DNA of 64,000 nucleotides from Promethearchaeota archaeon. Its GTDB lineage: Archaea > Asgardarchaeota > Lokiarchaeia > Sigyniarchaeales > SOKP01. Positions 2,088-44,148 of this stretch are shown in pieces. The stretch's first letter is position 1. Every line of letters starts with the position of its first letter. The stretch covers positions 32,001 to 96,000 of the forward strand of contig JBHLOC010000008.1 in the NCBI GenBank assembly GCA_048940925.1. The letters run 5' to 3'. The notes below the pieces were generated by a model that saw nothing but the letters and a program-made list of their open reading frames with translations, did not search any database and was not told the DNA's origin. A program made the translations under genes and the position numbers.

Positions 2088-3635
2088 TTAAGAATAAATC
2101 TGCGCGAAAGTTTCTGTGGTTTTATTTAAATCCAAAGACAAATAAGTTTGTTTGAATAAAGAAGCAAAGAATGCTCTATCCTCTGGATTAAAATATTTGT
2201 ATCCAAATTTCTTCCATTCCATTCTAGATTGTAATGGAGCAAAAATAGATAACTGATCTTCCACTAGATTCATCAATAACATATTCTTCTCCTGCTTATT
2301 TGTATTTGATATTAATGTTAACAAGACTTCATCATTAAAACTATCCCATGAGTCTTTAAATTGTAAACAGAGTTTTTTAATATCAAACTTATTCTCAGTT
2401 ATTAGTTTTGCTATAGTATTTATCAAATTTTGAAAAGTACCTTCTTTATTTTGGTTGTATAAAGGATTAGAGACAATTAAACCGGGAGGACTTTTAAGAT
2501 CTTTTTGGTATTGTGGGAGATTATATTCAGGTAAAAGCCGTAATTGATTTAATCCAAGTATATTTCTCACATCTGCAATAGTTCCACCTGTATCGAAGAA
2601 TTGCTTGTTAATAACATAAATTAAAAGCTTCTCAGCATGCATGTCCCCAAAGTAAGGATAATCGGTCGCAAATAAAAGGTGCTCACTCCAAGTTCTATTA
2701 TCTACTCTTTCTTTATTTTGTGAAATAAACCAATTTCGAAAACTTTCAAAGAAATTTCCTGCCCCTGCACCATGTAGCATAGAAAGATCTCCATATGTAT
2801 TTGGTTGTACTACTGTTTCATATACTTCATAATCGTCAATATTACCTTGAGCAAAATGAGCTATAATTACTTTAAAATGGGGTAATAAATCAGGATATTT
2901 CGACTTTATTTCTCTTCTTGTTGCTTCTACTAATTTTCCAATTTCTAATATTGAACCTCTTCCTCGTGTATCAAAAATAACTGGCAAAGAATGGCTTGCG
3001 GCTTCTATAAGAACTTTAACGGCTTTCTCAGAGCTAATCTTATCAATCCACCCTTCTGATCGAGGATGTAATTTCAAACCACGAAGTCCTAACACTTCTC
3101 TTGCATAGGTGACCTCATTTACTGCCTTTTCACCTTCCATAGGATCACACCGACCATATCCAATGAGTTTCATGGAAAATGGAAACCGCGTAGTAAAACG
3201 AGATATATTGATATTACTCGCTCGATATAAGGCTTCAGGGCGTTTGTCTCTAAATACATCCTGAAAGGGAAAACAAACACCCTGATCTATCAGGGAGTAA
3301 AATTTAGATTTCTCTTTTAAATCTGAATGCTGTTTTCCTAACTTTTCTAATGCTTGATATAATTTATCAGTAAAAGGATAGGGTGTAAATGACCAAGAAA
3401 TCTTAGTGAATTTACGATTCATATTTGTTGTAAACGATTGTTCCCCTGCTTTTTCCCAATCTGCCTGAATTCTCCCTTGCACATTACCCCAAAAATCAAA
3501 AGTCCCTACACCAGGCGCCAAAGGATTCATCATTGTCGCCCCATCGACATCTTGTCCAAGATGAGAATGTGAATCAATTACAAATATGTGTTCTACTCGT
3601 CTTTTTCCATCTTGTTCTATTGTTGCTGTTAGCAT
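2088..3635 (-). CDS. Amidohydrolase superfamily (amidohydro_2-like) protein
   Basis: Motifs IDSHSH, GLKLHP, IIAH and LFATDYP; C-terminal extension. Confidence 0.75.
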   Translation of the reverse strand: MLTATIEQDGKRRVEHIFVIDSHSHLGQDVDGATMMNPLAPGVGTFDFWGNVQGRIQADWEKAGEQSFTTNMNRKFTKISWSFTPYPFTDKLYQALEKLGKQHSDLKEKSKFYSLIDQGVCFPFQDVFRDKRPEALYRASNINISRFTTRFPFSMKLIGYGRCDPMEGEKAVNEVTYAREVLGLRGLKLHPRSEGWIDKISSEKAVKVLIEAASHSLPVIFDTRGRGSILEIGKLVEATRREIKSKYPDLLPHFKVIIAHFAQGNIDDYEVYETVVQPNTYGDLSMLHGAGAGNFFESFRNWFISQNKERVDNRTWSEHLLFATDYPYFGDMHAEKLLIYVINKQFFDTGGTIADVRNILGLNQLRLLPEYNLPQYQKDLKSPPGLIVSNPLYNQNKEGTFQNLINTIAKLITENKFDIKKLCLQFKDSWDSFNDEVLLTLISNTNKQEKNMLLMNLVEDQLSIFAPLQSRMEWKKFGYKYFNPEDRAFFASLFKQTYLSLDLNKTTETFAQIYS

Positions 3636-3883
3636 ATAAAGATCAATTCTAATTTTTATTTTAGAAATTAGTAATAATAACTTAATTAAAACTTAATTAT
3701 TACTAGAATTTTAATTAAAGCAAAAGAACTAATTTTTCTTTTTATTTCTAATCTTGTAATAGTTATTATTTGAATATATGAAGCTACTTTAAGGTAAAAT
3801 TTATAAATAAAAGGTCTTTATGAGATTAGTGAGAAATCTTAAATACTCACAAGTTTAAATTTTAATTAAAAGGAGGAATTATA

Positions 3884-41328: not shown

Positions 41329-44148
41329 TCACGCAACTAAGCTCAGTTCAATTTTAAATGTAGCAATTACATGTGCTTGTAATGTTATTTCCAGTATATT
41401 TTTATCAAACCTATCAATATTTGCTTTAATTACTTGTTTTGGTATATCTTCCAACAAATTTACAATTTTAACATCGCTAATTGTGATCTTTTCATAAAAA
41501 GTTAAAATTGTCTTTTGAGGGATAGAGGAAATATTATAAACTCTGATAACCAAATAATCTCCCTCCTCTGCTTTTTTAAGAGCACTTAAAATTACGCTTT
41601 TATTATTTATCTCAAGAAAACTTAAAGCAAAAGGAAGATAAGGCTCAAATTGTTCTTTTTTGGATGTACGATAGTAAGATAAAGGTCCAGATGGTCTTAA
41701 TATAACTTTATCCGAGGCTCTAAAAGGGGTTTGAACCATTGCTGGAAAAATTGGCTTAAGTGGGCTATTAAATTCTTTTCCTCTCATATGTACTTCTGAA
41801 TCTAACCAGTTGGTTTTTTGGCTAGTTATAATTGACAATTCAAATATGTGTGTACCAAGGCATTGTGCACCAGGTGTGTTCAAACCTGGTCCTGCATGAG
41901 ACATTCTAGTAATAAAATCATCACGAGAAAGCCATTCAACACATCTTAAGAGTGTGATTGCAAATATTATAGTATTATCTTTATTAATTATCCCTTCATA
42001 TTCCGGTAAACCTTTGTTTAATACAGCAAAAGTTCTTGAATTATCATTAATACATACAAAATCCTTCTGATGGTTTGTAGGTAGCGGTTTTTGAACCCAC
42101 TTGTCTGCTTTTGGCATTTTAACCCTCCTAGGAACGACATAAAAGTGTCCATCAGCAAAGATTGTGTCTGATCTTATCTTAGTAGGAAACAAGACACGAA
42201 TTCGATGATCTTTGCTATTATTTTCTAATTCAATCTTAAAATCAATTCGTTTAATCCCTTTATATAATGAGATATATAACGTTATTTTATTATCAACTAA
42301 CCAGTCTTTTCTATTATATCTATCCTCTGTAAGCGAGTGTGGAAGCTTTAGGTTTAATCTTAATTTAAATGTCTTTTGAGATGGGCCATCTATATAAACT
42401 GATCTTTCGAATATAGCAGCATCTTCAGTTGTGAAAACCAGATCATTTTGATTCTCTCTTGGACCAGAAAAGTCATATTCATCACCCCAATCACCCACAT
42501 CCTCGAATTCACAAATATTTTCATAGCACACTCCTGTTGTTTTATCAGTAACTTTGATAAATCCATCTGATTTTATATCAATTCGATAAAACTCATTTTC
42601 TAAATATTCTCGTGTTATCTTAAAATTTATGTTTTCGACAGTATATAACGTTGCTGATTCCACTGGTATAACGTAATAAACTTTATAGCCACATGGAGGA
42701 ACTTCTGCTAAAAATGTTAACTTATGACTTATGCCAAACTTTCTGGTAAATCGAGGCTGTTCTTTAATAACACAAGTTTGATATTCAATTTCTTGTTCAT
42801 CAGAATCAATCACTTTGATATTAAATGGTAATTTTTCACCTTTAGTCTTACGTGAAATCATATTGAATTCTACAACATCTTTTCGTTTCCATGGGAGTGG
42901 ATTATAAACAATTAAAGAGTTTAAATCCTTGTATTTAATATTCCCATTAATAAAATTGGATAAATAGATAAAAGAGTTTTTAAAAATCTCACTTGCAATT
43001 TGCTCTGCCCAGTCAAATCTCGTGTTCATTTCATCATGAACTTCATCAATGCTACAACCACATATACTATCATGGGGGGCATTTTTCTGAAGCCATTTTA
43101 AGCCTGTTAGTATGTAATCCTTTGGGTAAATAAAGCTCCTATATTTATCTAGAACCCACGTAATTGTAGAAATCGGTTCTGAGTACTTTTCATAAAGATT
43201 TTCAATTACTGTATTTCTTTGCTTAATCCAAATTCGAGCGGACAATACTCCTGATAATAAATGACCATATCTTCCGCCTCTTAATTCTCCTTCAAATGAT
43301 TTTAAATTTGGATTTGATTCTAAAACTTTGCCTACATAATATTCAAAGTCCGCTTGTTCTATATATTTTTCAGGATATAAATTATTCCATTGTTTTATGA
43401 TTTCTGGTATTTCTGGTTGAGCTTCATCGTGATCTGAACCATTATTAAGGAGTACATGTGGAGTACTAGTATAATTTTCTAAATTTTTAACCATATATTT
43501 TATCCTTCTCAATGCAGGTTTATATTCTCCCTTGATTTTTTGTGTATTGAGCTTTTCTAATGACCCATAACCAAATATTAAATGAATTCCTAAAATAGAT
43601 GCGGCATTTCCAGGGGCTTTCCATAAATATTCCATATTCAAATTGTTTTCTTCAAATTCATTACCAAATCCTCTCTTAAATATTACAGAAGAGATTTCAA
43701 AACCACTTAAAACTTGAGGCAATTGTGCAATATGCCCAAATGGATCAGGTATATAACCTGCTTTCATTACACGTCCAAACTTTCTGCTAATTTGGTGTCC
43801 GATTATTAAATTTCTTATTAAAGATTCACTACTAACCAAAAATTCATCTGGCAACACATACATTGGACCTATAGAAAGCCTTCCTTCTTTTACATATTTT
43901 TTAATTTCCTCCTCTCTCTCAGGTCGAACTTCTAAATAATCCTCTATTGGAATGGTTTGCCCGTCGAACGTGAAATTTTTGTAATCAGGGTCATTTTTTA
44001 GAACATCCAACAATTTATCCATCATTATAACAAGTCTAGCACGAAACTCTTGAAAAGGGAGATACCAATCATGCTTTATACATCAATTGTATAAAGTTTC
44101 ACGGTCCCAATGAGTTTCTGGAACAATTATTATGTTATTCGCTTTCAA
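41329..44148 (-). CDS. GH38 alpha-mannosidase, split by a 30-nt BHB intron (exons 44148-44098 and 44067-41329; 929 aa spliced)
   Basis: TTG start gives MKANNIIIVPETHWDRE, which joins WYLPFQEFRARLV. Downstream motifs: DGQT, PDPFGH, NGSDH and HDSICGCS. Confidence 0.9.
44068..44097 (-). other. Putative BHB mRNA intron in the GH38 gene (30 nt)
   Basis: Minus strand CGTG-AA|A-CTTTATACA-ATTGA-TGTATAAAG-CATG-AT|T: 4-bp central helix, two 3-nt bulges and a perfect 9-bp inner stem. Contains an in-frame TGA. Confidence 0.88.

What the first reader, a model, noticed from the sequence alone, without database searches (positions are those of the whole stretch)
44060..44110. Clearest BHB intron splits the metal-binding motif of the GH38 mannosidase
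The conserved HWDREWY motif is interrupted by ACTTTATACAATTGATGTATAAAGCATGAT. It has a perfect 9-bp stem (CTTTATACA/TGTATAAAG), central helix CGUG/CAUG (one G.U) and bulges AAA and AUU. Canonical cuts join CGT GAA to TGG TAT. The outer helix is weak (one C-G pair, then GGGA/UCUC after a bulge). The ORF track starts downstream and loses the N-terminal His/Asp ligands.
Basis: partly seen in the sequence, partly recalled or inferred. Interest (0 to 1): 0.9.

Follow-up and report, generated by a model that had tools for sequence, protein, structure and literature searches.

The report
tRNA-type mini-intron in Asgard mannosidase gene
A 30-base insert with a stop codon splits the metal-binding motif of the main alpha-mannosidase gene of a Loki-type Asgard archaeon; it has the shape of a tRNA intron, is almost certainly cut out of the mRNA, and in related genomes sits at the edge of a mobile DNA-cutting-enzyme cassette that seems to spread it.

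Summary
On the minus strand, a 30-nt insert (window 44068-44097) lies in frame between HWDRE and WYLPF of a GH38 alpha-mannosidase and carries a TGA. It folds as a relaxed bulge-helix-bulge (BHB): a 4-bp helix CGUG/CAUG, two 3-nt bulges, a 9-bp intron stem and a weak outer helix. The canonical cuts give GAA|TGG. That is exactly the junction in 25 intronless orthologues of the same genus and in solved bacterial GH38 structures, and the spliced product is 929 aa, like the intact orthologues. Fifteen other assemblies carry a 30-nt insert at the same site. Their changes preserve pairing, and their stop codons differ (TGA or TAA, at different codons). The interrupted genes are under the same purifying selection as the intact ones, exon 1 included. 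The genome encodes two EndA subunits and RtcB. No RNA data could be obtained, so splicing is inferred. New here: in 7 insert-bearing alleles a LAGLIDADG homing-endonuclease gene, a replacement exon 1 and the mini-intron form one cassette. It sits exactly at the E|W junction, beside a decaying relic of the native exon 1. This scan had already reported similar mini-introns in other genes of this genome.

The parts
44098..44148 (-). Exon 1 of the GH38 alpha-mannosidase. TTG start plus 16 codons (M/L-KANNIIIVPETHWDRE).
   Evidence: It aligns with the ATG-started exon 1 of orthologues. Among 16 intron-bearing alleles, the I, I, V and T codons show 3 synonymous variants each with the residue unchanged, and P shows 3 plus Q and S.
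44068..44097 (-). 30-nt BHB mini-intron ACTTTATACAATTGATGTATAAAGCATGAT, with an in-frame TGA.
   Evidence: It is absent from 25 same-genus orthologues and present at the same site, always 30 nt, in 15 other assemblies. There is no other copy in the genome.
41329..44067 (-). Exon 2 (912 codons plus stop). Exon 1 plus exon 2 gives 929 aa, the length of the intact orthologues.
   Evidence: four GH38 Pfam domains; intact homologues of 926-932 aa.
44100..44103 (-). Central BHB helix, 5' strand CGUG (exon 1: the Arg codon CGT plus the G of GAA).
   Evidence: It pairs with CAUG at 44070-44073 and is 98% paired over 14 distinct alleles; CAUG becomes CGCG in L039 and L040. All 16 intron-bearing alleles have CGT, whereas only 1 of 25 intronless alleles does.
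44097..44099 (-). Bulge 1 (AAA). The cut falls after its second nucleotide, that is after 44098.
   Evidence: this position is invariant in 16 alleles.
44074..44096 (-). Intron helix h' (9 bp: 44088-44096 with 44074-44082) and its 5-nt loop AUUGA (44083-44087).
   Evidence: Folding. Over 14 distinct alleles it is 93% paired, and 4 pairs show changes on both sides.
44070..44073 (-). Central BHB helix, 3' strand CAUG (intron).
44067..44069 (-). Bulge 2 (AUU). The cut falls after its second nucleotide, so exon 2 starts at 44067 (UGG).
   Evidence: the bulge is ACU in L042 and L044.
44057..44108 (-). Weak outer (exon) helix h: C44104-G44066, then GGGA (44105-44108) with UCCC (44057-44060) across a 5-nt internal loop.
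   Evidence: 98% paired, but with no change on both sides. The MFE uses these bases in a competing pairing.

Best explanation
The 30 nt at window 44068-44097 (minus strand) is an archaeal endonuclease-type (bulge-helix-bulge) intron in the pre-mRNA of the genome's main GH38 alpha-mannosidase. The transcript folds so that exon bases CGUG pair with intron bases CAUG. This helix is flanked by two 3-nt bulges and stacked on a 9-bp intron hairpin (a relaxed HBh' motif). The heteromeric splicing endonuclease EndA cuts after the second base of each bulge. RtcB then joins ...CGU GAA to UGG UAU..., restoring HWDREWY and a 929-aa enzyme, and the intron is released, probably as a circle. Shown: the anatomy, the exact orthologous junction, conservation and covariation across 16 alleles, purifying selection, and the presence of the enzymes. 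Inferred: the cleavage and ligation themselves. As a second-level inference, the intron spreads at the DNA level with a LAGLIDADG homing endonuclease. In 7 related alleles a cassette [endonuclease gene (divergent), about 215-nt spacer, replacement exon 1 (MVKSKN...HWDRE), mini-intron] sits exactly at the E|W junction next to a relic of the native exon 1. The mini-intron would stop the new exon 1/exon 2 joint from re-creating the endonuclease's target. The window's allele is the 'intron-only' form. It arose either by repair that used the replacement exon 1 as left homology, or by loss of the endonuclease gene through recombination between the two exon 1 copies.
For: (1) Exact junction. All 25 intronless same-genus orthologues read CAY TGG GAY Arg GAR|TGG TAY, and the insert is an exact 30-nt extra. 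Solved GH38 chains 3LVT, 5KBP and 2WYH align as HWDRE----------WYLP. (2) Sixteen alleles from independent assemblies carry a 30-nt insert at this site. On 14 distinct rows 95.6% of cells pair, against 29-58% when the partners are slid. Four pairs change on both sides, and the central helix keeps pairing through CAUG to CGCG. Several changes are G.U wobbles that only work on the sense-strand RNA. (3) The insert is not translated. The in-frame stops differ: TGA at codon 5 in most alleles, TGA at codon 3 in L040, TAA at codon 3 in L042, and TAA at codon 5 in L045. (4) The gene is alive. Median dN/dS is 0.13 for intron-bearing pairs and 0.15 for intronless pairs, with dS of 0.6-2.5. The first 40 codons of exon 2 give 0.08, and exon 1 shows synonymous variation with conserved residues. 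(5) The machinery is present: two EndA paralogues, the first most similar over its full length to crenarchaeal catalytic subunits 3P1Z_B and 3AJV_B, plus RtcB. The literature assigns Asgard the broad-specificity (alpha-beta)2 EndA with the L1 loop (PMC5829648). (6) Genome context. Aragorn models introns in 22 of 34 tRNAs. My own scan finds the same 30-nt BHB geometry in EF-2 and other genes, 5 hits against 0 in eight shifted controls. (7) Mobility. The LAGLIDADG_3 ORF scores above the Pfam cut-off. It is present beside 5 of the 14 insert-bearing alleles first collected and none of the 25 intronless loci, and 2 more cassette loci were found by searching with the endonuclease. Relic native exon 1 copies end at GAA| in G002, G005 and L044. 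G005 is 97-99% identical to its intronless sister L013 except in the first 75-200 nt after the junction. Intron-bearing alleles are scattered on the gene tree: 7 changes, at least 4 of them forced.
Against: There is no RNA or peptide evidence. The outer exon helix is weak and irregular, so the motif is relaxed rather than canonical hBHBh'. The predicted MFE (-14.0 kcal/mol) uses a competing pairing, and the BHB conformer is 3.3 kcal/mol worse. Whole-region folding z-scores are modest (-1.9; about 0 for L002). Most of the 16 alleles are closely related in the intron, so the covariation rests on a few divergent rows (L002, L006, L039, L040, L042, L045); L045 breaks one pair of the central helix. 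The window allele starts with TTG rather than ATG. For the homing model, the endonuclease's target and activity are untested, the window itself has no endonuclease gene nearby, and the endonuclease paralogues elsewhere in this genome showed no similar cassette.
Confidence: 0.85

Rival explanations
1. The gene is a pseudogene, or only the 898-aa product from the internal ATG at 44025 is made. The insert would then be a palindromic insertion scar with no RNA processing.
For: Gene callers in many assemblies emit exactly this 895-898-aa product. The insert contains an in-frame stop. No spliced RNA has been seen.
Against: The interrupted alleles have persisted over dS of 0.6-2.5 with dN/dS of 0.13, the same as intact alleles. 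The 17 codons of exon 1 and the 14 codons between the insert and the internal Met stay open and conserved at the protein level, with synonymous variation. The truncated product would lack the HWDRE motif, which solved GH38 enzymes share. The wobble and compensatory changes point to a constraint on RNA structure.
Confidence: 0.06
2. The insert is skipped during translation (programmed ribosomal bypassing over a hairpin that carries a stop codon, as in T4 gene 60 or the yeast mitochondrial 'byp' elements), giving the same protein without RNA splicing.
For: The insert is short (30 nt), keeps a hairpin and always has an in-frame stop soon after the take-off point. The product would be identical, so the comparative data on the protein cannot tell the two apart.
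Against: Bypassing needs matching take-off and landing codons. Here GAA would have to land on GAU or GAC (UAU in L045), which are not cognate. The conserved features are those specific to EndA: a 4-bp exon-intron helix that co-varies (CAUG to CGCG), two bulges of exactly 3 nt, and cuts at the canonical positions. The same genome is rich in tRNA BHB introns and encodes EndA and RtcB. As far as I know, bypassing has not been described in archaea.
Confidence: 0.03
3. The insert is translated by recoding its stop codon (selenocysteine, Trp or readthrough), giving a 939-aa enzyme with a 10-residue loop after HWDRE.
For: The insert is a multiple of 3. Most alleles have a single TGA.
Against: L042 and L045 have TAA, and L040 has its TGA at another codon. 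The 'encoded' peptide is not conserved while the RNA pairing is. No orthologue or solved GH38 has residues at this point.
Confidence: 0.01
4. The BHB intron is real and spliced, but the LAGLIDADG gene is only a neighbour. The intron would be old and lost repeatedly, and the cassette would be an unrelated insertion upstream of the gene.
For: Nine of the 16 intron-bearing alleles have no endonuclease gene. The most divergent introns (L039, L040, L042) are endonuclease-free. The endonuclease's target is untested.
Against: The left end of the cassette coincides with the intron insertion site within about 2 nt in three lineages, each with a native relic exon 1. G005 gained the cassette, the intron and a short converted exon tract after splitting from a 97-99% identical intronless sister. 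The endonuclease gene was never found beside an intronless allele.
Confidence: 0.3

Closest known systems
BHB intron in the cbf5 pre-mRNA of Crenarchaeota (Watanabe 2002; Yoshinari 2006; Yokobori 2009, PMC2738675)
   Same: A short intron (16-44 bp there, 30 nt here) inside a protein-coding gene. It has a relaxed BHB motif, occurs in a lineage with the hetero-oligomeric EndA, is patchily distributed among relatives, and is too short to encode a nuclease.
   Different: Different gene (GH38 mannosidase) and different phylum (Loki-type Asgard). It is one of many such introns in this genome rather than a single case. Splicing is not yet shown experimentally here. Here there is a linked free-standing LAGLIDADG cassette.
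Asgard tRNA BHB introns (bioRxiv 10.64898/2026.10.13.758758; PMC5829648)
   Same: Same motif and same presumed enzymes: an (alpha-beta)2 EndA with broad specificity, plus RtcB. That preprint infers repeated, apparently independent gains of tRNA introns in Asgard.
   Different: [quoted passage not shown] That preprint does not mention mRNA at all and uses protein-coding genes only as synteny markers.
Archaeal rRNA BHB introns that encode LAGLIDADG homing endonucleases (the rRNA-intron endonucleases reviewed in PMC2738675; I-DmoI from my own knowledge)
   Same: A BHB intron combined with a LAGLIDADG endonuclease as a mobile unit that targets a conserved site.
   Different: There the endonuclease ORF lies inside the intron. 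Here it lies outside, in the opposite orientation, and comes with a duplicated replacement exon 1. The intron itself is only 30 nt.
Collaborative homing: free-standing F-CphI and the group I intron in cyanophage psbA (Zeng, Bonocora and Shub 2009, as described in PMC6083498)
   Same: A free-standing endonuclease gene lies next to an intron-containing gene. The intron interrupts the presumed target site and so protects the carrier, and the endonuclease gives an ORF-less intron its mobility.
   Different: The intron is an endonuclease-spliced BHB mini-intron, not a ribozyme. The host is an archaeon, not a phage. The cassette also carries a new 5' gene end and leaves a relic exon. Cleavage specificity is untested here.

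Membership tests
Archaeal BHB (EndA-spliced) intron | [quoted passage not shown] | tested here: met
   CGUG/CAUG with bulges AAA and AUU. The bulge lengths are invariant in 16 alleles, and the central helix is 98% paired with one-sided pair-preserving changes.
Archaeal BHB (EndA-spliced) intron | Flanking helices h (exon side) and h' (intron side). The strict motif needs both; relaxed forms need at least one. | tested here: inconclusive
   h' is a 9-bp helix with 4 co-varying pairs. h is only one C-G pair plus GGGA/UCCC across an internal loop, and the MFE prefers a competing pairing. This fits the relaxed HBh' class, not strict hBHBh'.
Archaeal BHB (EndA-spliced) intron | Cuts at the fixed bulge positions yield a functional mature RNA | tested here: met
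   The predicted joint GAA|TGG equals the sequence of 25 intronless orthologues and of solved GH38 chains, and the product is 929 aa.
Archaeal BHB (EndA-spliced) intron | The host encodes a splicing endonuclease able to use relaxed motifs, and an RNA ligase | tested here: met
   Two EndA paralogues and RtcB. One paralogue aligns over its full length with crenarchaeal catalytic subunits. [quoted passage not shown]
Archaeal BHB (EndA-spliced) intron | Excision shown in RNA (spliced junction, circular or linear intron) | not testable with these tools
   No RNA run was listed for this sequence.
LAGLIDADG homing endonuclease (the cassette ORF in related loci, not in the window) | LAGLIDADG domain(s) with the signature motifs | tested here: met
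   PF14528 scores 34.8 and 28.8 bits against a cut-off of 22.5. Two motifs can be read in P0122 (YWLGFLYADGE and AWLLGYYDGDGN). There are 407 homologues, some of them named LAGLIDADG family homing endonuclease. There was no PDB hit by sequence.
Collaborative homing (free-standing endonuclease plus ORF-less intron) | The endonuclease cuts the intronless allele at the intron insertion site, and the intron blocks cutting | not testable with these tools
   The evidence is indirect only: the cassette boundary lies at the E|W site, with native relics and a co-conversion tract.
GH38 alpha-mannosidase | The N-terminal, middle and C-terminal GH38 domains, including the N-terminal HWDRE motif | tested here: met
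   Pfam PF01074, PF09261, PF07748 and PF17677 are all above their cut-offs. HWDRE aligns with 3LVT, 5KBP and 2WYH.

The most novel reading that the evidence does not exclude
BHB mini-introns in Asgard protein genes are not passive relics. They are the 'immunity spacer' of homing cassettes. In this model a LAGLIDADG endonuclease cuts the conserved HWDRE|WY coding site. Repair then copies either the whole cassette (endonuclease gene, replacement exon 1 and mini-intron, leaving a relic exon) or the mini-intron alone. This would be a DNA-level, endonuclease-driven route by which spliceable introns enter and spread through protein-coding genes in the closest archaeal relatives of eukaryotes.
Probability: 0.5. 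Interest if true: 0.9.

Novelty: new variant of a known kind. Interest (0 to 1): 0.8.

Why it matters
In the papers I could search, an endonuclease-spliced intron inside an archaeal coding sequence is documented for essentially one gene (cbf5, Crenarchaeota). None of the searches found a report of one in Asgard archaea. Here a well-supported case sits in the catalytic motif of an enzyme gene of a Loki-type Asgard archaeon, and it is one of several in the same genome. This has three consequences.

- Standard gene calling truncates such genes. The 895-898-aa 'mannosidases' in public databases lack their HWDRE metal-binding motif for this reason.
- Asgard cells appear to need mRNA splicing by the tRNA machinery for ordinary metabolism.
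- The series of alleles suggests a mechanism for intron gain that can be tested: intact cassette, broken endonuclease gene, endonuclease gene deleted, intron only, and no intron. That bears on the long-standing question of how introns colonise protein genes.

Tried and rejected
- **RNA evidence:** The look-up of sequencing runs listed no RNA holder, so no reads could be laid.
- **Repeat or mobile element:** I looked for other copies of the intron in the genome and found only chance 12-15-nt hits. It is not a repeat or MITE in this genome.
- **Loose genome-wide scan:** a BHB scan combined with an ORF-merging test gave no enrichment (3691 hits against 3492-3799 in shifted-cut controls). Signal appeared only under strict settings (stem of 9 bp or more, length 28-34, at least 60 open codons on both sides): 5 against 0. 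The scan is therefore not a census.
- **Other introns in the window:** the two introns that earlier notes report in my window were not picked up by my strict scan.
- **Endonuclease paralogues in G000** (C26, C57, C17, C70; about 30% identity): I found no duplicated exon and no convincing mini-intron next to them.
- **PDB sequence search with the endonuclease:** no hit.
- **Gene tree:** the careful search did not finish. The quick IQ-TREE tree was used, and L008 (G003) is a long, half-empty row.
- **One large BHB intron:** I considered reading the whole 1.45-kb cassette as a single large BHB intron between the relic exon 1 and exon 2. I rejected this because the relic has lost the CGUG strand and carries H-to-Q or stop changes, and the left end of the cassette cannot form the h' helix.
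- **Recoding of the stop:** rejected because the stops vary among alleles.
Full report
**What is there.**
The gene lies on the minus strand. Read 5' to 3', it runs TTG AAA GCG AAT AAC ATA ATA ATT GTT CCA GAA ACT CAT TGG GAC CGT GAA, then the 30 nt ACTTTATACAATTGATGTATAAAGCATGAT, then TGG TAT CTC CCT TTT....
- The insert occupies window 44068-44097 (checked against contig coordinates).
- It is in frame and would read TLYN*CIKHD.
- The ORF list therefore begins at the internal ATG at 44025 (898 aa).
- Read through, the protein carries all four GH38 Pfam domains.
- Exon 1 (44098-44148, 17 codons) plus exon 2 (41329-44067, 912 codons) gives 929 aa. That is the length of most intact homologues, which sources name as Lokiarchaeota or Promethearchaeota and other Asgard proteins.
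- The window is G000:C43:32001-96000 of a 4.8-Mb, roughly 30% G+C genome in a genus with at least 36 species genomes.

**The structure.**
- Exon bases CGUG (44103-44100) pair with intron bases CAUG (44073-44070), with one G.U.
- On the 5' strand a 3-nt bulge AAA follows, then the 9-bp helix CUUUAUACA/UGUAUAAAG with loop AUUGA.
- On the 3' strand CAUG is followed by the 3-nt bulge AUU.
- Cutting after the second base of each bulge, the canonical position by the two-fold symmetry of the motif, removes exactly 30 nt and joins GAA to UGG.
- The exon-side helix is weak: C-G, then GGGA/UCCC across an internal loop.
- ViennaRNA reproduces the 9-bp stem but prefers a competing outer pairing (MFE -14.0 against -10.7 kcal/mol for the BHB conformer). 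The motif is therefore of the relaxed HBh' kind.

**Comparative test.**
- A DNA search of 60 relatives found the region in 29 genomes (G000 included), all of the same genus.
- In 25 of them the sequence reads CAY TGG GAY Arg GAR directly followed by TGG TAY. These orthologues lack exactly these 30 nt and nothing else.
- Solved bacterial GH38 chains (3LVT, 5KBP, 2WYH) align with a 10-residue gap at the same place: HWDRE----------WYLP.
- Shifting the deletion by one base either way would give ER or DW, so the junction supported by orthologues is unique. It equals the BHB prediction.
- A motif of this quality occurs about 4e-5 times per position in this genome.

**Other carriers.**
The homologue list held a set of 895-898-aa gene calls.
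- For every one whose DNA could be fetched, the upstream sequence shows exon 1, a 30-nt insert at the same site, and exon 2.
- With three genus genomes (G002, G005, G019) and two loci found later, there are 16 carriers.
- Most inserts are close variants. L002, L006, L039, L040, L042 and L045 are more divergent.
- On the 62-column alignment (14 distinct rows) 95.6% of cells pair, against 29-58% for slid partners.
- Four pairs of the intron stem change on both sides.
- The central helix stays paired when CAUG becomes CGCG (G.U to G-C, U-A to U.G).
- Several substitutions are A-U to G.U, which keeps pairing only in the sense-strand RNA.
- All 16 carriers have CAT TGG GAC CGT GAA, whereas intronless alleles vary freely at these synonymous sites.
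- The covariation evidence has limits: the rows are related, few are divergent, and L045 breaks one central pair.

**The gene is alive and the insert is not translated.**
- The in-frame stops differ among carriers: TGA at codon 5; TGA at codon 3 in L040; TAA at codon 3 in L042; TAA at codon 5 in L045. This excludes Sec or Trp recoding.
- Pairwise dN/dS among carriers has a median of 0.13 (0.07-0.26), against 0.15 among intronless alleles, at dS of 0.6-2.5.
- The first 40 codons of exon 2, which include the stretch upstream of the internal Met, give 0.08.
- In exon 1 the I, I, V and T codons show three synonymous variants each with the residue unchanged, and P shows three synonymous variants plus two replacements, Q and S.
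- The selected product is therefore the full-length, joined protein.
- The genome has only one other, distant GH38-like gene.

**Machinery and context.**
- G000 encodes two EndA paralogues. One aligns end to end with the crenarchaeal catalytic subunits 3P1Z_B and 3AJV_B and carries Y..H..K. The other lacks the His.
- It also encodes RtcB.
- Aragorn models introns in 22 of 34 tRNA genes.
- My own strict scan found the same geometry, 30 nt long, between the G1 and G2 motifs of EF-2 (C32:27895-27924) and in two other genes. That is 5 hits against 0 in eight shifted controls.
- Earlier notes of this scan list more such introns in this genome. I treated them as leads only.
- In the papers I could search, splicing of an archaeal coding sequence by this route is documented for cbf5 (PMC2738675). 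I found nothing on Asgard mRNAs.

**Mobility (new here).**
*Allele classes.*
- Five carriers (L001, L004 = G005, L006/L032 = G002, L037, L043) have a different exon 1 (MVKSKN...).
- About 215 nt upstream of HWDRE and divergently oriented, they also have a roughly 390-aa ORF with two LAGLIDADG motifs (PF14528 at 34.8 and 28.8 bits, cut-off 22.5).
- The ORF is intact in L006 and L037 and broken in L001, L004 and L043.
- It is absent from all 25 intronless loci.
- A metagenome scan with this protein returned two more loci, both again next to an intron-bearing mannosidase.

*Relic exon 1.*
- Beyond the endonuclease gene, G002, G005 and L044 keep a decaying copy of exon 1: MKANNIILVPETH*DRE, MKPNNIIIVPEAQWDRE, and ...TQ*DRK.
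- Each copy ends exactly at ...GAA, where the cassette begins.
- The G005 and G002 relics match the exon 1 of their own closest lineages: G005 to L009 (107/117) and L013 (103/117); G002 to L036 (112/120).

*A recent gain.*
- G005 is 97-99% identical to its intronless sister L013 from about nt 225 of exon 2 onward, but only 87-90% identical before that.
- The differences in the first 35 nt after the start of HWDRE match the other carriers.
- G005 therefore gained the cassette, the intron and a short converted tract recently.

*Loss and distribution.*
- L038 keeps the spacer and the new exon 1 but has lost the endonuclease ORF and the relic.
- On the quick gene tree the carriers are scattered (7 changes, at least 4 forced).

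*Model (inferred).*
- The endonuclease cuts intronless alleles near the E|W coding site.
- Repair from a carrier copies the whole cassette if the relic serves as left homology.
- Repair copies only the 30 nt if the replacement exon 1 does.
- The mini-intron keeps the new exon 1/exon 2 joint from re-creating the target.
- This resembles the collaborative homing described for F-CphI and the psbA intron (PMC6083498), but with a BHB mini-intron.

*The window allele.*
- The window has an ancestral-type exon 1, with the upstream sulfatase-like gene only about 90 nt from the start codon, and no endonuclease gene.
- It is the intron-only class.

**Verdict.**
- I put the EndA/RtcB-spliced mRNA intron at about 0.85. 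The remaining doubt is the lack of RNA data and the weak outer helix.
- I put the endonuclease-driven spread at about 0.5-0.6.
- Novelty: a new member of the cbf5-type class in a new phylum and gene. The free-standing LAGLIDADG cassette with a replacement exon makes it a new variant.

Noticed in passing
L006:1846-3024 (+), L037:23-1195 (-); broken copies in L001, L004, L043; also L044:662-1840, L045:1501-2676: A roughly 390-aa double-motif LAGLIDADG ORF lies divergently upstream of intron-bearing mannosidase alleles. It comes with a replacement exon 1. In G002, G005 and L044 a relic of the native exon 1 ends exactly at the intron insertion site.
   Followed up: yes
G000:C32:27895-27924 (minus strand): A 30-nt insert with the same BHB geometry (UCAG/CUGA, 9-bp stem) splits an EF-2-type GTPase gene between AHIDHGKTT...DSD and DEEQERGITI. 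My own scan found it.
   Followed up: partly
G000:C64:13177-13206 (minus strand) and G000:C30:66095-66124 (plus strand): Two further 30-nt BHB-shaped inserts whose removal joins long open frames (...YDKHS | GGVPGNK..., and ...FLCGFHV | RAALRDLYVKGAKP...). I did not identify the genes with a family search.
   Followed up: no
It can be seen by reading the sequence, but my strict BHB scan did not pick it up.
   Followed up: partly
window 44146-44148 (minus strand): The mannosidase of this genome and of L002 starts with TTG where the other orthologues have ATG. L045 has no ATG, GTG or TTG in frame upstream of exon 1 (possibly ATC after a GGTGA).
   Followed up: no
G000 whole genome: Aragorn models introns in 22 of 34 detected tRNA genes. 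Only 34 tRNAs were detected, which suggests that more are hidden by non-canonical introns.
   Followed up: no
L038:1150-1375: An allele that keeps the cassette's spacer and the replacement exon 1 but has lost the endonuclease ORF and the relic exon. It looks like an intermediate in the loss of the endonuclease gene.
   Followed up: partly
L008 (G003:C3:207873-210961): The intronless orthologue of G003 reads open for only 293 codons in my extraction and forms a very long branch in the tree. I did not examine the cause (a real break, or masked bases).
   Followed up: no
G000:C25:2005-2706: A second, distant gene containing a GH38 N-terminal domain (39.5 bits, 730-aa open frame).
   Followed up: no
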